64,000 nt of DNA from sequence record NZ_CP044066.1. One strand, 5' to 3'. The stretch is from a plasmid. The first letter of the stretch is position 1; the number at the start of each line of letters is the position of its first letter. The notes below the pieces were generated by a model. It saw only the letters and a list, made by a program, of their open reading frames with translations. It had not been told where the DNA came from and searched no databases. The translations under genes and the position numbers were made by a program. This document shows, in pieces, positions 4,273 through 17,224 of this stretch.

Positions 4273-4854
4273 TCACTTGACGGTAAGCCGCTCCGCAGTG
4301 CGATGCAACGCGACACCGACGTTGATGACGGCCTTTTCCGCAGCTTTGTCCTTGAGACCGATCCCGCCGTCGAATGCTTGATGGGCAAGTCCGAGCGTAA
4401 ATGCCTCCGGAACAACCACGACACCCAGCTTGTCCAGCACCGTGCGCAACGCAAGCTGCGAACGCAGGCCACCCAGTTGCCCTGGCGATGCAGAAACCAT
4501 TGCCGCTACCTTTCCTGCAAGCAGCGCAACGCCCGAGGTGCCGTCTTCCTGCGGGCGACTTACCCAATCCAGCGCATTCTTCAGCGCGGCGGTATAGCCG
4601 CCGTTGAACTCGGGCGTTGCAATCAGCAATGCATCGTGCTCGGCGAACACCGCCTGCAGCCGACGCACTTCTGCGGGAATCCCTTGATCGGCTTCCAAGT
4701 CGCCGTCATAGATCGGCAACGCAAAATCGCGCAGCCGGATTGACGTCACGGATGCACCCGCATCGCGCGCGCCATTTGCGGCGATATCGAGCAGCTTCTG
4801 ATTCAGCGAGCCGCGACGAGAACTGCCGCTCACCGCAAGGATTCTGATACTCAT
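4273..4854 (-). CDS. NADPH-dependent FMN reductase family protein (NbaA-like nitroreductase candidate)
   Basis: MSIRILAVSGSSRRGSLNQKLL...LLIATPEFNGGYTAALKNALDW flavodoxin-like FMN reductase signature; AGGAG RBS 5 nt before ATG 4854 (track ORF over-extended to 4914). Confidence 0.75.
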   Translation of the reverse strand: MSIRILAVSGSSRRGSLNQKLLDIAANGARDAGASVTSIRLRDFALPIYDGDLEADQGIPAEVRRLQAVFAEHDALLIATPEFNGGYTAALKNALDWVSRPQEDGTSGVALLAGKVAAMVSASPGQLGGLRSQLALRTVLDKLGVVVVPEAFTLGLAHQAFDGGIGLKDKAAEKAVINVGVALHRTAERLTVK

Positions 4855-4879
4855 GCCATCTCCTGAAGAGGTCTTGAAG

Positions 4880-5398
4880 TTACTGCGCCGGCGGGGGTCG
4901 GTATTCGATTTCACCGCCCGGCAAGAAATACATCATCAGGGCCCTGCCCTTGACGGTCGGAAAATGCTCGCTCATCGGCGCAAAGACGCGCCAGCCCGCG
5001 CCATGCTCGCAGAACTGGGCGCCGGGTTCGAGCGGGATGATCATGTTGATTTCGCCTCGCGTGTGGCAGTGATACTGGCCCTTGACGTCGCGCAGCAGCC
5101 CGCTTTCCACGCTCATCTCCGCCGTCTGGTAACCAGGTTCGGCGATCCGACCCCGGCGGTACGCGGCACCGTCGATCTCGACGTAACCCGCCCATCCCTC
5201 TTCCACGCCCAGCTTCAACAGCCTGCACATCTCCTCGTACGCTTGCGTCCCGGCACCGTAGTGTTCGTTCAGGTGCGCTTCGAGTTCTTCATCGAGTGGG
5301 CGCGAACGCATGTCGTCGCACAGGCGACGCACCCATTGAAGCAACTCCTCCTTGTGTGGACCTTGCGGCAGCATCTGGCTCTCCTTATTTATCTGCAT
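4880..5398 (-). CDS. conserved hypothetical protein (172 aa) inside catabolic operon
   Basis: Complete ORF between the FMN reductase and the amidohydrolase on the same strand; no motif recognised (contains HCHTRGEIN, GAGW); position suggests pathway function. Confidence 0.5.
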   Translation of the reverse strand: MQINKESQMLPQGPHKEELLQWVRRLCDDMRSRPLDEELEAHLNEHYGAGTQAYEEMCRLLKLGVEEGWAGYVEIDGAAYRRGRIAEPGYQTAEMSVESGLLRDVKGQYHCHTRGEINMIIPLEPGAQFCEHGAGWRVFAPMSEHFPTVKGRALMMYFLPGGEIEYRPPPAQ

Positions 5399-5406
5399 CG
5401 TCTGCC

Positions 5407-6420
5407 TCAGCCTACGGCCTGGGGCAGACTGAAAAACCTGGCGGCATTACCGCCAAGAATACGGCCTTTGGCCTGATCGCTCAGACCGCCGTGGTTTTCT
5501 ACCAACGCGCCGATTGACTGCTCACCCAGCGGATACGGGTAATCGGACCCCAGTAGCACCCGTTCCTCGCCCATGACGTCTACCAGCAGGCTGAGGGATT
5601 TCGCGTCGAATACCGCGCTGTCCACGGAGAAGCGGTCCACATAGGACGACGGCAGTTTCGGGCAATCCTCACGGACGATGTCGCGATGGCGCCATGCGTT
5701 GTCGACACGCCCCAGCAGGAACGCGAAGCTGCCGCCGCCATGCGCAAAGCACAGCTTCAGGGATCGTGGAATCCGCTCGAATGCACCGGACAGGATCAGC
5801 GACAGGATGCCCAGCTGGGTTTCCGCCGGCATCGCCACCAGCCACGGCAACATCCATTTCTTCATCCGGCCATCAGTCATCATGTCCCACGGATGCACGA
5901 GTACGGGGATGCCTTCGTTGGCGCAGTGACACAGAAACTGGACCAGGCCCTCGTCGTCGAGATCGCGCGCACCCACGTGGTTGCCGATCTGCACGCCGCA
6001 ATGTCCCGAAGCGTGCGCACGCGATGCCTCCTGGCATGCCAGTTCGATATCCTGCAGCGGAACCTGCGCGAGTGCCCTGAGCCGATCCGGTGCGACCGCG
6101 CAGAGTTCGAGCGCCTTGTCGTTTATGCGCTGCGCCCACTGCCACGCCGTGCTGGCGTCGTAGCGATAGCCGAACATCACCGGTGTAGCGCACATCAGTT
6201 GCACATCGATCCGTTGTTCGTCCATCTGTTCCAGACGTCGACGCGGGTCCCACAGCGGACGGTTGACCGGCCGGAACGCCCGGTCGCCCAGCATGATCGT
6301 TCCCGTTTCGCCATCGTCCGAGACGGCAAGCCACGGCACATCCGGCTGGCCGACTTGCGCAGCTTCCTCCCGCGAAATCGTCGGGAAAAAGTGGGAGTGC
6401 ATATCAATTCGCAAGGTCAT
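5407..6420 (-). CDS. amidohydrolase-2 family decarboxylase (ACMSD-like, 2-amino-3-carboxymuconate-6-semialdehyde decarboxylase candidate)
   Basis: [13 protein letters not shown] metal-binding HxH start typical of ACMSD/LigW family; ~337 aa; internal HPWDMM, FAHGGG motifs; start moved to ATG 6420. Confidence 0.75.
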
Positions 6421-6439
6421 GGTTTCGCTATGGAAAAGC

Positions 6440-14583: not shown

Positions 14584-15107
14584 GCGTTACCCCGACCCGG
14601 GTGCAACGCCCCGCAATGCGAACAGCGTCGGCTGTCTTCCGAGGCATAGAACGCTTCGAACAAGGGCGGCAGATCCTCGACGATGCTGCGCAACTGGACT
14701 TCGACGCGGTGGACCAGGCCGTCGCAGTTCGGGCAATACCACTCAAAACCGTCCAGCGCGCCCTCCGGCCGCTGCCGCTCGATCACCAGGCAGACGCTGC
14801 CTGGCTCGGGCCGCTGTGGCGAATGCCGGACGTGTGGCGGCAGCAGGAACACATCTCCCTCGCGAAGGTCCACGCGCTCGCGCTTGCCGTCCACCATCAG
14901 GTTCAGATGCGCATTGCCCTGAATCTGATAGAAGAACTCTTCAAGCGGATCGTCGTGATAATCCGTGCGCAGATTGGGGCCGCCTACGGCAGTCACGATC
15001 AGGTCCGCTCCCGGCCATAGCTGCTGGTTTCCGACCGGCGGCATCAGAAGATGGCGACGTTCGTCGATCCAGTTGTCGAATTGGAATGGCTGTCCATGCT
15101 TCAGCAT
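14580..15107 (-). CDS. nbaC: 3-hydroxyanthranilate 3,4-dioxygenase (bacterial HAAO, cupin + C-terminal rubredoxin-like site)
   Basis: 175 aa; cupin metal site [14 protein letters not shown]...HVRHSPQRP; C-terminal CPNCD...CSHCG double CxxC. Confidence 0.85.
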
Positions 15108-15135
15108 TGTTGTCTCCGATCCTCAGGCTGATCGA

Positions 15136-15582
15136 TCAGCCTGCTTTCACTTGGGGCGCGTAGGCGATGGCCTTGATCTCGATGACCAGCAACGGGTGCG
15201 GCAACTGGTGCACTGCCACCGTGGTGCGCGTGGGACCGCCTTCGTCGAAGTATTCGGCATAGGTTTCGTTGTAACCCCCGAAATCGTTCATGTTGACCAG
15301 GAATGTGGTGATCTCCACCACATTCGCAAGATCCGCACCTTCGGCCTGGAGGATGTCGCGAATGTTCTCGATCACCGCTCGCGTCTGCTGCCGGATATCG
15401 ACAGTCGTGGTACCGAACGCGTCGCTGGATGCTCCGATGAAGGTGTTGTCCGGACGCCTCGAACTGGTGCCCGACACGAAGAGAAAGTCACCGGCGCGCA
15501 CCACATGGGGAAACCGCCCCCGGGGTGTTGCCTTGCCTTGCACCAGGCGCGCCTGACTGGACTGCGTCATTACCTGCTCCAT
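15136..15582 (-). CDS. RidA/YjgF-family protein (2-aminomuconate deaminase candidate)
   Basis: 148 aa RidA fold ([28 protein letters not shown]...IEIKAIA); adjacent to HAAO. Confidence 0.75.
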
Positions 15583-15622
15583 TGATGTTGTCGTTGAGGA
15601 AATTGATTGGGAAAGGCGCGCC

Positions 15623-17224
15623 CTACTGGTTCACATCGACGTCTTTGGTTTCCTTGAGCACAAAGATGCCGAGAGCGACCGAGACACCACCCACGATGAT
15701 TGCGTACCAGAGTCCGCCCAGCACATCGCCTGACTTCACGGCGAGCGCAGTCGACATGAACGGAGCCAGTCCGCCGAAATATCCGGCGCCGATGTTGTAG
15801 GGAATGGAGATCGACGTGTAGCGAATGGCGGCCGGAAACAGTTCCACGTAATAGGCAGACATCGGGCCATAAGCCATCGCACCCCAGATCATCAGCAGAA
15901 ACAGGAGGCCATACATGACGGGACGATTGATCGCGTCCGTGTCGGCCGCTGGCGGATAACCGGCGGCAACCAGTGCTTCCTTGAACGTGCTGGCATCAAA
16001 CCCGTAGAGCGGCTTGTCGCCGATGTAGGTCACCAGAGGTTCCCCAGCTAGGCCCGGCTCCACGCGGTACGACAAACCCGCTTGTGTCAGGAAGTCTCGT
16101 GCCTTGTCACAGGCGGTATGGGCGTCGGAGAACATGCTGTCATTGCACTCGGATGAGGCGATGCGGATCGTCACGGATTGCTGGAAGTGAGCGAGTCCCG
16201 GATTCACGGCCTTGCTCAGTTGGGAAAAGATCGGGAGGAACGTCACGACTGCCATGCCGCAACCAATCAGGACGATCCATTTGCGGCCCACCTTGTCCGA
16301 CAGCCAGCCAAAGAACACGTAGAGCGGCAGCGAGAAAATCAGCGCGACAACCAAGTAACCGTAGGCGTCGCTGGCTGGCACCTTGAGCGTGGAGGTCAGG
16401 AAGTACAGGACATAGAAGTTGCATGTGTACCAGACCACGCCAACTGCGGCTTGCGCGCCAAACAACACCGCCAGCATGCGGCGCACGTTCTGCCCAACCA
16501 TCAGGCTGTCGCGTAGCGGGGCACTGGACGTCCGGTTCTCCGCTTTCATGCGCCTGAATACGGGAGACTCCGAAAGCGTCGTGCGGATGTACGTGGATAC
16601 GGCCAGGAGTAGCAGGGACGCGAGGAACGGGACACGCCAACCCCACGATGCAAAGTCTTCCGTCGAGATCCAGATCCGGCAGATCTGCGTCACCGCAAGA
16701 GACAACAGGAAGCCGAAAGTTGCGGTGGTCTGAAGCCAGCCCGTCGCGTAACCGCGGCGACCCGACGGCGTGTGTTCCGCGATATAGGCCGCGGCACCGC
16801 CGTACTCACCACCCAATGCCAACCCCTGGAGCAGACGCAGCACAATCAGGATGGCAGGCGACGCCCAGCCGAGCGTCTCGTAGGAAGGCAAGAGGCCGAT
16901 ACCGGCCGTGGAGACACCCATCAATACGACCGTGGCGAGAAACGTTGCCTTGCGCCCGGCCTTGTCGCCAAACCGGCCGAACAAGACCGCACCGAGCGGG
17001 CGGATGATAAAGCCGATACCGAATGTCGCCAGTGAGGCGAGATAACTCGCCGTGGAATTACCGGCGGGAAAAAAATGCGAGGAAAAGAAAATGGCCAGAC
17101 TTCCGTAGAGAAAGAAGTCATACCATTCGAGAACAGTACCGACACACGCCCCTACGACAACCTTGACTTCTTCACGCCTGGCCGTGCCACGCGGCCGCAC
17201 CTCTGCTGTTAGTTCGCTGCTCAT
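15623..17224 (-). CDS. MFS transporter, metabolite:H+ symporter (MHS) family
   Basis: [16 protein letters not shown] signature of MHS (ProP/KgtP-like) permeases; 12 predicted TM-like hydrophobic segments with large central loop; 533 aa. Confidence 0.8.

What the first reader, a model, noticed from the sequence alone, without database searches (positions are those of the whole stretch)
4273..17224. Complete 3-hydroxyanthranilate / 2-nitrobenzoate-type meta-cleavage pathway in one 13-kb minus-strand block
From the sequence one can assign every downstream step:
- HAAO (cupin with double CxxC tail);
- ACMSD-like amidohydrolase (MHSHFFP start);
- NAD-dependent semialdehyde dehydrogenase;
- RidA-type deaminase;
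- 4-oxalocrotonate decarboxylase, hydratase, aldolase and acetylating acetaldehyde dehydrogenase.

Four consecutive ATGA/GTGA start-stop overlaps indicate translational coupling. At the promoter-distal end sit an NADPH:FMN reductase of the NbaA nitroreductase family and an unassigned 172-aa protein. This is the architecture expected for 2-nitrobenzoate or 2-aminophenol degradation rather than plain kynurenine catabolism (no kynureninase, formamidase or TDO genes). A porin, a LysR regulator, an MHS transporter and a flavin reductase are embedded, which suggests a self-contained uptake-plus-catabolism module acquired laterally next to the integrase.
Basis: partly seen in the sequence, partly recalled or inferred. 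Interest (0 to 1): 0.55.

Follow-up and report, generated by a model that had tools for sequence, protein, structure and literature searches.

The report
Known-type 2-nitrobenzoate degradation gene cluster
This 13-kb block is a complete, intact copy of the already characterised bacterial gene cluster (nba/onb) that lets soil bacteria take up the pollutant 2-nitrobenzoate and break it down to central metabolites, so it is a sound but ordinary finding.

Summary
Window 4273-17224 holds 14 intact minus-strand genes. The pathway call (2-nitrobenzoate via 3-hydroxyanthranilate) is right, but two key assignments were swapped. The true 2-nitrobenzoate nitroreductase NbaA is the "embedded flavin reductase" (13933-14583): 73% identical, 216/216 aa, to the NbaA crystal structure 4Z85. 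The "unassigned 172-aa protein" (4880-5398) is the 2-hydroxylaminobenzoate mutase NbaB (Pfam PnbB; 50% identical to KU-7 NbaB). The promoter-distal NADPH:FMN reductase (4273-4854) is not NbaA family. It is a ChrR/YieF/azoreductase-type enzyme, 82% identical to the ST-14 "FMN reductase" (OnbX3).

Gene order equals the published Cupriavidus sp. ST-14 cluster onbX2-FCAR1-EHJIGDB-X3, with an extra porin after the regulator.

New details:
- a strong terminator follows the porin;
- a motif TTGATTAT-N20-TAGACT occurs exactly twice in the window, upstream of the transporter gene and of nbaE, and recurs before nba units in other genomes, which suggests two co-regulated operons;
- the FMN reductase accompanies nbaB in most genomes examined.

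Only three, not four, 4-nt start/stop overlaps hold up. Lateral acquisition is plausible but not shown by att sites. Verdict: new member of a known kind, low interest.

The parts
17286..17319 (-). Putative promoter/operator P1 (TTGATTAT-N20-TAGACT), ending 61 nt upstream of the transporter start codon
   Evidence: One of only two matches in the 64-kb window, 0.00 expected by chance. The same motif precedes nba units in other genomes.
15623..17224 (-). MFS transporter of the metabolite:H+ symporter type, 533 aa. Equivalent of onbX2 (ST-14) and nbaT (KU-15). Inferred inner-membrane 2-nitrobenzoate uptake.
   Evidence: Pfam Sugar_tr and MFS_1. 71-74% identical homologues sit beside nbaA in Paraburkholderia and Caballeronia. 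The ST-14 Up1 forward primer, placed in onbX2, maps here with 2 mismatches.
15136..15582 (-). nbaF/onbF, RidA-family 2-aminomuconate deaminase, 148 aa
   Evidence: Pfam Ribonuc_L-PSP. PDB 6IZH '2-aminomuconate deaminase', E 5.7e-59.
14580..15107 (-). nbaC/onbC, 3-hydroxyanthranilate 3,4-dioxygenase, 175 aa
   Evidence: NCBIfam NF009763 and TIGR03037 above cut-off. PDB 1YFU, E 1e-94. H51/E57/H95 and the 4-Cys site are read directly from the sequence.
13933..14583 (-). nbaA/onbA, NADPH- and FMN-dependent 2-nitrobenzoate nitroreductase, 216 aa. Its start overlaps the nbaC stop (ATGA).
   Evidence: PDB 4Z85 '2-nitrobenzoate nitroreductase', E 1.3e-110. 157/216 identical with no gaps. Pfam Flavin_Reduct.
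12936..13898 (-). nbaR/onbR1, LysR-type regulator, 320 aa
   Evidence: Pfam HTH_1 and LysR_substrate. 68-90% identical homologues occupy the same position in related clusters.
11718..12803 (-). Porin_4-family outer-membrane porin, 361 aa. Lineage-specific insertion between nbaR and nbaE.
   Evidence: Pfam Porin_4, 1.3e-55. Present at this position only in the window, L001 and C. basilensis KF708 (84%), and absent from the other clusters.
11638..11681 (-). Intrinsic terminator: 13-14 bp GC-rich stem followed by a T10 run, 37 nt downstream of the porin stop
   Evidence: Terminator scan. Fold of the 71-nt stretch 11630-11700: -35.1 kcal/mol, z = -3.2. Absent from KF708.
11540..11573 (-). Putative promoter/operator P2 (TTGATTAT-N20-TAGACT), ending 28 nt upstream of the nbaE start codon
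   Evidence: Conserved upstream of nbaE in 7 other genomes, with or without the porin.
10021..11511 (-). nbaE/onbE, 2-aminomuconate-6-semialdehyde dehydrogenase, 496 aa
   Evidence: PDB 4U3W (E 1.6e-256) and 4I1W. TIGR03216 at 830 bits, above cut-off.
9188..10018 (-). onbH-equivalent, 2-oxopent-4-enoate hydratase, 276 aa
   Evidence: NCBIfam: best matches are the hydratase models NF008461 (328 bits) and dmpE (258), against dmpH (194). All are below the equivalog cut-offs.
8256..9191 (-). onbJ-equivalent, acetylating acetaldehyde dehydrogenase, 311 aa. Its GTG start overlaps the hydratase stop (GTGA).
   Evidence: TIGR03215 at 460 bits, above cut-off. Start codon read. Same gene call.
7204..8244 (-). 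onbI-equivalent, 4-hydroxy-2-oxovalerate aldolase, 346 aa
   Evidence: TIGR03217 at 575 bits. AAGGAG Shine-Dalgarno before ATG 8244. ST-14 onbI is 346 aa, and the Up2 primers map 540 bp apart, as in ST-14.
6440..7207 (-). onbG-equivalent, 4-oxalocrotonate (2-oxo-3-hexenedioate) decarboxylase, 255 aa. Its start overlaps the aldolase stop (ATGA).
   Evidence: NCBIfam: dmpH is the best model (210 bits, against dmpE at 147), below the equivalog cut-off.
5407..6420 (-). nbaD/onbD, 2-amino-3-carboxymuconate-6-semialdehyde decarboxylase, 337 aa
   Evidence: PDB 2HBV, E 2.5e-156. Pfam Amidohydro_2.
4880..5398 (-). nbaB/onbB, 2-hydroxylaminobenzoate mutase. 172 aa, or 164 aa if translation starts at ATG 5374 behind an AAGGAG.
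   Evidence: Pfam PnbB PF16155, 2.7e-46. 50% identical to P. fluorescens KU-7 NbaB (A4UVY2). 88% identical to a Cupriavidus homologue. ST-14 onbB is annotated as 172 aa.
4273..4854 (-). onbX3-equivalent, NAD(P)H-dependent FMN reductase of the ChrR/YieF/azoreductase class, 193 aa. Role in the pathway unknown.
   Evidence: Pfam FMN_red. PDB neighbours 1RTT, 3SVL and chromate/azo-reductases. 82% identical to the 'FMN reductase' of Cupriavidus sp. ST-14. Follows nbaB in 25 of 32 nbaB loci.
3148..3774 (+). Short tyrosine-recombinase ORF, 208 aa, catalytic domain only. Convergent neighbour of the cluster.
   Evidence: Pfam Phage_integrase, residues 41-192. Weak XerD/XerC matches. A 61% identical segment (tblastn, 119 aa) lies next to the nba genes of Variovorax sp. 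Sphag1AA.

Best explanation
The block is an nba/onb-type 2-nitrobenzoate (2NBA) uptake-and-catabolism cluster. It is orthologous to onbX2-FCAR1-EHJIGDB-X3 of Cupriavidus sp. ST-14.

**Inferred mechanism** (from orthology, not tested here):
1. 2NBA crosses the outer membrane through the porin and the inner membrane through the MFS symporter.
2. NbaA (FMN, NADPH) reduces the nitro group to 2-hydroxylaminobenzoate.
3. NbaB rearranges that to 3-hydroxyanthranilate.
4. NbaC (HAAO) opens the ring to 2-amino-3-carboxymuconate semialdehyde.
5. NbaD decarboxylates it.
6. NbaE oxidises the semialdehyde to 2-aminomuconate.
7. NbaF deaminates that to 4-oxalocrotonate.
8. The decarboxylase, hydratase, aldolase and acetylating dehydrogenase give pyruvate and acetyl-CoA.

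**Regulation and transcription** (inferred). The LysR protein activates two promoters that share TTGATTAT-N20-TAGACT.
- P1 drives MFS-nbaF-nbaC-nbaA-nbaR-porin, which ends at the hairpin at 11638-11681.
- P2 drives nbaE-H-J-I-G-nbaD-nbaB-FMN reductase.

The terminal FMN reductase is a conserved accessory of the upper pathway whose role is unknown.
For: - NbaA: full-length, gap-free 73% identity to PDB 4Z85.
- NbaB: PF16155, 50% identical to the KU-7 enzyme and 88% to a Cupriavidus homologue.
- HAAO, ACMSD, AMSDH and the deaminase match solved enzymes of exactly these activities at E 1e-59 to 1e-256.
- The lower-pathway enzymes match NCBIfam models.
- The gene order is identical to the published ST-14 order.
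- ST-14 primers map with 2-3 mismatches in the syntenic genes. Amplicon sizes are 483, 540 and 538 bp, against 480, 540 and 540 bp in ST-14.
- The ST-14 'FMN reductase' is 82% identical to the terminal gene.
- The cluster is syntenic in C. basilensis KF708 (78-90% aa) and, apart from rearrangements, in Caballeronia, Paraburkholderia, Trinickia, Variovorax and Pseudomonas.
- In ST-14 the cluster is 2NBA-inducible and required for 2NBA conversion (PMC5817917).
- Two-operon model: terminator; motif found twice in the window against 0.00 expected; the relaxed form of the motif (TTGAT[TC][ATG]T, 19-21 nt, TA-N-ACT) gave 19 hits in 923 kb of fetched loci, all before nba units; conserved block upstream of nbaE in 8 genomes.
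Against: - No experiment exists on this organism. Substrate specificity of NbaA, NbaB, the transporter, the porin and the regulator is inferred from orthology.
- NbaB is only 50% identical to the one biochemically named homologue available here. Its family also contains 4-hydroxylaminobenzoate lyases.
- The hydratase and decarboxylase score below NCBIfam equivalog cut-offs.
- ST-14 was reported to transcribe the cluster polycistronically, which sits uneasily with a two-operon model. ST-14 is named without the porin, however.
- The motif was derived from the two window sites before the chance test, so only the cross-genome recurrence is independent support.
- The simple sigma-70 scan did not flag P1 or P2.
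Confidence: 0.9

Rival explanations
1. It is a tryptophan/kynurenine-derived 3-hydroxyanthranilate catabolic cluster, as described for Burkholderia cenocepacia and Cupriavidus metallidurans. The reductases would be unrelated passengers.
For: The HAAO to acetyl-CoA part is shared by both pathways. The best PDB matches for HAAO and AMSDH come from such organisms. C. metallidurans CH34 chromid DNA aligns at 74% over 5509-9691.
Against: NbaA and NbaB orthologues are embedded in the same two transcription units. No TDO, formamidase, kynureninase or KMO domain was found in the scanned window ORFs. The same promoter motif precedes separate nbaB and MFS-nbaA units in other genomes.
Confidence: 0.05
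2. It is a 2-aminophenol/nitrobenzene-type (amn/nbz/cnb) or 4-nitrobenzoate (pnb) pathway rather than a 2-nitrobenzoate one.
For: The deaminase, AMSDH and lower pathway are shared with amn clusters. The 172-aa protein belongs to the Pfam family named after the 4-hydroxylaminobenzoate lyase PnbB.
Against: Ring cleavage is by HAAO, not by an AmnAB-type extradiol dioxygenase, and an ACMSD is present, which only a carboxylated substrate requires. The reductase is 73% identical to the 2NBA-specific NbaA. No protocatechuate genes are present. The ST-14 cluster did not respond to 3- or 4-nitrobenzoate, 2-aminophenol or 2-nitrophenol.
Confidence: 0.03
3. The promoter-distal FMN reductase is, the nitroreductase that starts the pathway, alone or redundantly with NbaA.
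For: FMN_red-family enzymes can reduce nitro- and azo-aromatics (family knowledge; azoreductase matches). The gene is co-inherited with nbaB in most genomes.
Against: It shares no family with NbaA: PF03358 against PF01613. A bona fide NbaA orthologue is present. In ST-14, deletion of onbFCA abolished 2NBA conversion although onbX3 was left intact.
Confidence: 0.07

Closest known systems
onb cluster of Cupriavidus sp. strain ST-14 (onbX1X2FCAR1EHJIGDBX3; Basu et al. 2016, as described in PMC5817917)
   Same: - Same gene order and orientation from X2 (MFS) to X3 (FMN reductase).
- Identical or similar protein lengths: A 216 aa, I 346 aa and B 172 aa in both; F 148 versus 149 aa.
- ST-14 primers map at syntenic sites with the same amplicon sizes.
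- OnbX3 is 82% identical.
   Different: - The sequence is not identical: 2-3 mismatches per 18-nt primer.
- A porin gene plus a terminator sits between the regulator and nbaE, and is not in the ST-14 gene list.
- No same-strand onbX1 counterpart exists upstream. The neighbour is a divergent DctP-type binding protein.
- onbG is 268 aa in ST-14 and 255 aa here.
nba cluster of Pseudomonas fluorescens KU-7 (nbaA, nbaB, nbaEXHJIGFCDR, nbaY; Iwaki et al. 2007 and Muraki et al. 2003, recalled from memory, full text not held)
   Same: Same enzymes. NbaA is 73% identical and NbaB 50%. ACMSD and AMSDH match the P. fluorescens structures.
   Different: The gene order differs, with upper and lower pathway arranged otherwise, as in the Pseudomonas loci L029 and L036. 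No NahY-type chemoreceptor was seen here. An MFS transporter and a porin are present here.
nbaFCTAREHGIJDB of Paraburkholderia terrae KU-15 (PMC9302171)
   Same: Same gene set including a transporter (T) and a regulator (R). Paraburkholderia homologues are 66-83% identical.
   Different: In KU-15 the transporter lies between C and A, and the order of G/I/J differs. Anthranilate dioxygenase genes adjoin the KU-15 cluster, whereas none is in this window. KU-15 has no porin.
ChrR/YieF/PA1204-class NAD(P)H:FMN quinone/chromate/azo reductases (for the 4273-4854 gene)
   Same: Same Pfam family PF03358. The best solved matches are 1RTT, 3SVL and 3S2Y, at E 1e-15 to 1e-20.
   Different: Here the gene is a fixed companion of nbaB in nitrobenzoate clusters. 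No substrate is known.

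Membership tests
nba/onb 2-nitrobenzoate catabolic cluster | NbaA-type split-barrel flavin reductase that reduces 2NBA | tested here: met
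   13933-14583 against PDB 4Z85: E 1.3e-110, 73% identity over 216/216 residues. Activity itself not testable.
nba/onb 2-nitrobenzoate catabolic cluster | NbaB-type (PF16155) 2-hydroxylaminobenzoate mutase | tested here: met
   PF16155 at 2.7e-46. 50% identical to KU-7 NbaB over 96% of the query. 47 invariant columns shared across 13 homologues. Mutase versus lyase chemistry is inferred from context.
nba/onb 2-nitrobenzoate catabolic cluster | HAAO, ACMSD, AMSDH and 2-aminomuconate deaminase | tested here: met
   The HAAO metal ligands and Cys4 site are present in the sequence.
nba/onb 2-nitrobenzoate catabolic cluster | 4-oxalocrotonate branch: decarboxylase, hydratase, aldolase, acetylating dehydrogenase | tested here: met
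   The aldolase and dehydrogenase score above cut-off. The hydratase and decarboxylase match the right models best but score below the equivalog cut-offs.
nba/onb 2-nitrobenzoate catabolic cluster | Synteny with the characterised ST-14 cluster | tested here: met
   Order F-C-A-R-E-H-J-I-G-D-B, flanked by MFS and FMN reductase. Primer mapping and OnbX3 at 82%.
nba/onb 2-nitrobenzoate catabolic cluster | Growth on 2NBA, or induction by it | not testable with these tools
   Needs the organism. The exact sequence was found only in metagenome contigs.
   The protein is PF03358/PF02525. Its PDB neighbours are PA1204, YieF, chromate reductases and azoreductases, and 4Z85 is not among them.
Kynurenine pathway of tryptophan catabolism | TDO, kynurenine formamidase, kynureninase and/or KMO in the cluster | tested here: not met
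   None among the ORFs scanned with Pfam. A few short ORFs of the window were not scanned.
2-aminophenol (amn) / nitrobenzene (nbz) pathway | AmnAB-type 2-aminophenol 1,6-dioxygenase, and no need for ACMSD | tested here: not met
   The ring-cleavage gene is HAAO and an ACMSD is present. No extradiol dioxygenase domain is in the block.
Integrase-borne genomic island | Full-length tyrosine integrase, attachment-site direct repeats, tRNA or other target, compositional break | tested here: inconclusive
   The recombinase is only 208 aa. No tRNA. No flanking repeats above chance size. GC is 0.60-0.64 in the block against 0.58-0.62 in the flanks. On the other hand, flanks are unrelated in KF708 and ParB, DUF932, RDF-like and IS3 genes lie further along.

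The most novel reading that the evidence does not exclude
The ChrR/YieF-class FMN reductase (4273-4854, OnbX3) may be a genuine third component of the upper 2-nitrobenzoate pathway and not a passenger.

**Candidate roles:**
- re-reducing 2-nitrosobenzoate, or the quinone-imine autoxidation products of 2-hydroxylaminobenzoate and 3-hydroxyanthranilate;
- catalysing the hydroxylamine-to-anthranilate branch reported for P. terrae KU-15.

**Why it is not excluded:**
- The gene travels with nbaB in 25 of 32 loci from eight genera.
- In Pigmentiphaga- and Variovorax-type clusters it sits inside an nbaB-SBP-FMNred-ABC-nbaA operon.

Together with the shared TTGATTAT-N20-TA-N-ACT signature, this would define the NbaR regulon, which the ST-14 authors stated was unknown.
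Probability: 0.3. Interest if true: 0.35.

Novelty: new member of a known kind. Interest (0 to 1): 0.15.

Why it matters
The block adds one more intact 2-nitrobenzoate degradation module, from an unnamed Burkholderiaceae-like organism known only from metagenome contigs. This is useful for annotation and for bioremediation or biosensor work, but it does not change the picture of the pathway.

Three by-products have modest value:
- a candidate operator/promoter signature for the nba regulon, which the ST-14 biosensor study said was not known;
- evidence that the cluster can be split by a porin-plus-terminator insertion;
- the observation that an uncharacterised FMN reductase is co-inherited with nbaB.

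It is also a worked example of a correct pathway call made from a wrong gene assignment.

Tried and rejected
- **Source organism.** Megablast of window 1-25000 against PLSDB plasmids and chromids gave only 71-77% partial matches. The genome-contig scan gave no identical genome; the best was C. basilensis KF708 at 86% for NbaB. Exact matches exist only in two Logan metagenome assemblies.
- **Mobile-element boundaries.** I found no tRNA and no convincing direct or inverted repeats bracketing the block. GC content and GC skew show no break.
- **Primary papers.** Iwaki 2007 (PMC1855914) and Basu 2016 (by DOI and a guessed PMC id) are not held. Statements about them come from citing papers or from memory and are marked as such.
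- **Prior description of an NbaR motif.** The betaproteobacterial aromatic-regulon survey contains none.
- **Sigma-70 scan.** It found nothing at P1 or P2, as expected for activator-dependent promoters, so promoter status rests on conservation only.
- **PDB search with NbaB.** No solved relative.
- **NCBIfam.** It has no model for NbaA, NbaB or ACMSD.
- **Structure prediction and fold search.** Considered and not run, because sequence-level orthology was already decisive.

Full report
**Observation**

Window 4273-17224 holds 14 intact, co-directional minus-strand ORFs. An independent gene caller found the same set on a metagenome contig whose sequence is identical to the window across the block and its left flank (L001).

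| Gene (window coordinates) | Assignment | Evidence |
|---|---|---|
| 14580-15107 | HAAO | NF009763 above cut-off; 1YFU E 1e-94; H51, E57, H95 and C125/C128/C162/C165 present |
| 5407-6420 | ACMSD | 2HBV E 2.5e-156 |
| 10021-11511 | 2-aminomuconate-semialdehyde dehydrogenase | 4U3W E 1.6e-256; 4I1W |
| 15136-15582 | RidA-type 2-aminomuconate deaminase | 6IZH E 5.7e-59 |
| 9188-10018 | hydratase | NCBIfam, best match to hydratase models, below equivalog cut-off |
| 8256-9191 | acetylating acetaldehyde dehydrogenase | NCBIfam, above cut-off |
| 7204-8244 | 4-hydroxy-2-oxovalerate aldolase | NCBIfam, above cut-off |
| 6440-7207 | 4-oxalocrotonate decarboxylase-like | NCBIfam, best match to dmpH, below equivalog cut-off |
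| 12936-13898 | LysR regulator | Pfam |
| 11718-12803 | Porin_4 porin | Pfam |
| 15623-17224 | 533-aa MFS transporter | Pfam |

**The two decisive genes were mis-assigned**

E is 1.3e-110, with 157 of 216 residues identical and no gap. It is the NbaA orthologue.
- The "unassigned 172-aa protein" (4880-5398) is a PF16155 (PnbB/NbaB) family member at 2.7e-46. It is 50% identical over 96% of its length to the Pseudomonas fluorescens KU-7 2-hydroxylaminobenzoate mutase (A4UVY2) and 88% identical to a Cupriavidus homologue.
- The promoter-distal reductase (4273-4854; the ATG behind a GGAG gives 193 aa, like its 191-194-aa homologues) is PF03358. Its nearest solved structures are PA1204, YieF/ChrR chromate reductases and azoreductases, and NbaA is not among them.

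The pathway conclusion survives because the real NbaA and NbaB are both present.

**Relation to known clusters**

The order MFS-F-C-A-R-(porin)-E-H-J-I-G-D-B-FMNred is the published order of the 2NBA-inducible onb cluster of Cupriavidus sp. ST-14, onbX1X2FCAR1EHJIGDBX3 (PMC5817917).

- ST-14 primers from that paper's supplement map in the window with 2-3 mismatches, in the syntenic genes.
- The predicted amplicons are 483, 540 and 538 bp, against 480, 540 and 540 bp in ST-14. This identifies onbX2 as the MFS gene and onbX3 as the FMN reductase.
- The UniRef entry "FMN reductase, Cupriavidus sp. ST-14" is 82% identical to the window protein.
- The nearest genome in the species-representative collection is C. 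basilensis KF708. It has the same order including the porin, at 78-90% protein identity.
- Paraburkholderia, Caballeronia and Trinickia carry the KU-15-like variants described in PMC9302171.

The window organism itself is not in the collections searched. The exact sequence occurs only in two Logan metagenome assemblies.

**Mechanism (inferred from orthology)**

1. The porin and the MFS symporter import 2NBA.
2. NbaA reduces it to 2-hydroxylaminobenzoate.
3. NbaB rearranges that to 3-hydroxyanthranilate.
4. NbaC, NbaD, NbaE and NbaF convert it to 4-oxalocrotonate with release of CO2 and NH3.
5. The decarboxylase, hydratase, aldolase and acetylating dehydrogenase give pyruvate and acetyl-CoA.

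None of these activities was or could be tested here.

**Transcription units**

- nbaC/nbaA (ATGA);
- hydratase/AcDH (GTGA, with a GGAG Shine-Dalgarno upstream);
- aldolase/decarboxylase (ATGA).

The AcDH/aldolase GTGA is in the sequence. However, an AAGGAG precedes ATG 8244, which gives the 346-aa length annotated for ST-14 OnbI.

More importantly, the block is probably not one operon.
- A canonical intrinsic terminator lies 37 nt after the porin stop. It has a 13-14-bp GC-rich stem followed by T10; the 71-nt stretch containing it folds at -35.1 kcal/mol (z = -3.2).
- The 206-nt spacer before nbaE contains a sequence block conserved upstream of nbaE in eight genomes, whether or not they carry the porin.
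- Its core, TTGATTAT-N20-TAGACT, occurs exactly twice in the 64-kb window, at 17286-17319 upstream of the MFS gene and at 11540-11573 upstream of nbaE. Chance expectation is 0.00.
- A relaxed form of the core (TTGAT[TC][ATG]T, 19-21 nt, TA-N-ACT) gave 19 hits in 923 kb of fetched loci. All lie immediately upstream of nba transcription units: nbaF, nbaE, nbaB or MFS-nbaA (against the gene map).

I read this as two LysR-dependent promoters, with the activator site overlapping the -35 region and TAGACT as the -10. That reading is inference. The pattern was derived from the window sites, so only the cross-genome recurrence is independent evidence. The simple sigma-70 scan did not flag either site. 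KF708 has the porin but lacks the terminator.

**The accessory reductase**

The FMN reductase follows nbaB directly, or one gene away, in 25 of 32 nbaB-containing loci. These span Cupriavidus, Caballeronia, Paraburkholderia, Trinickia, Serratia, Variovorax, Pigmentiphaga and Pseudomonas.

In the Pigmentiphaga-type arrangement it lies inside an nbaB - binding protein - FMNred - ABC transporter - nbaA unit.

In ST-14, deleting onbFCA abolished 2NBA conversion with onbX3 left intact, so it is not the primary nitroreductase. Its conserved linkage points to an upper-pathway role, such as reducing nitroso or quinone-imine by-products or reducing the hydroxylamine. This role is untested.

**Lateral acquisition**

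For acquisition:
- The sequence downstream of the FMN reductase is unrelated in the window and in KF708, so the conserved module ends there.
- A segment 61% identical (119 aa, tblastn) to the 208-aa recombinase lies beside the nba genes of a Variovorax.
- The region from about 19 to 58 kb carries genes typical of integrative elements: a SoFic-like protein, a ParB-like protein, DUF932, an RDF-like domain, a prokaryotic ubiquitin-like cassette and an IS3 transposase.

Against acquisition, or at least not showing it:
- The recombinase is a catalytic-domain-only ORF.
- There is no tRNA.
- No bracketing repeats were found.
- There is no compositional break.

Acquisition by horizontal transfer is therefore likely but not demonstrated, and the "integrase" may be a remnant.

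**Rivals**

- A kynurenine-fed 3-HAA pathway is unlikely, because NbaA and NbaB sit in the same units and no kynurenine genes were found in the scanned ORFs.
- A 2-aminophenol or 4-nitrobenzoate pathway is excluded by the presence of HAAO plus ACMSD and by the NbaA orthology.
- The distal reductase acting as the nitroreductase is contradicted by its family assignment and by the ST-14 genetics.

**Verdict**

This is a correct pathway call reached partly for the wrong reasons. It is a new member of an already characterised kind of cluster. The minor variants are the porin-terminator insertion, a candidate regulon motif and a conserved accessory reductase of unknown role. Interest is low.

Noticed in passing
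window 17286-17319 and 11540-11573 (minus); also L003-L017: The motif TTGATTAT-N20-TA-N-ACT precedes every nba transcription unit in Burkholderiaceae loci. It is a candidate NbaR/OnbR1 operator-promoter signature. The ST-14 biosensor paper states that the promoter was unknown.
   Followed up: partly
window 4273-4854; L003-L036: A ChrR/YieF-class FMN reductase is co-inherited with nbaB in 25 of 32 loci across eight genera. In Pigmentiphaga and Variovorax it sits between a Liv-type binding protein and ABC transporter genes, within an nbaB...nbaA unit. Its function is unknown.
   Followed up: partly
L020, L021, L023, L026-L028 (e.g. L026 10001-16400): Pigmentiphaga- and Variovorax-type nba upper-pathway units use a Peripla_BP_6 binding protein plus an ABC permease and ATPases instead of the MFS transporter. 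Uptake systems have therefore been swapped between lineages.
   Followed up: partly
window 19419-20627 (minus): A 402-aa DUF4172-Fic protein matches the PADLOC SoFic defence model at 8.4e-41.
   Followed up: no
window 30703-36508 (minus): A four-gene unit: a 424-aa protein with a Gp3-like recombination-directionality domain, two proteins (496 and 219 aa) with no Pfam or PADLOC match, and a 774-aa AAA_23 SMC-like ATPase with weak LmuB/mad3 similarity. It may be a defence or element-maintenance system.
   Followed up: partly
window 46712-50619 (minus), with 50872-52593 and 39865-40929: A prokaryotic ubiquitin-like conjugation cassette (ThiF, DUF2016+JAB, Prok-E2_D, alpha-hel2, Prok_Ub) lies next to a 573-aa ParB-like protein. 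DUF3085 and DUF932 genes are nearby. This combination is typical of integrative/conjugative islands.
   Followed up: no
window 21751-24631 (minus): Two tandem HSP20 genes are followed by a 396-aa CAP-domain protein, in a stretch with a lower coding signal.
   Followed up: no
window 26166-26864 (minus): An isochorismatase-family ORF has an unusually high third-position GC of 0.92, against about 0.75 for its neighbours.
   Followed up: no
window 56540-57774 (minus); 53620-55164 (minus); 60327-61760 (plus): An IS3-type transposase pair (HTH_Tnp_1 followed by an rve domain) and two MocR-type GntR/aminotransferase regulators.
   Followed up: no
window 3148-3774 (plus); L028 958-1550: A short (208-aa) tyrosine recombinase with only the catalytic domain. 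A 61% identical segment (119 aa, tblastn) is also adjacent to nba genes in Variovorax sp. Sphag1AA, which hints that it travels with the cluster.
   Followed up: partly
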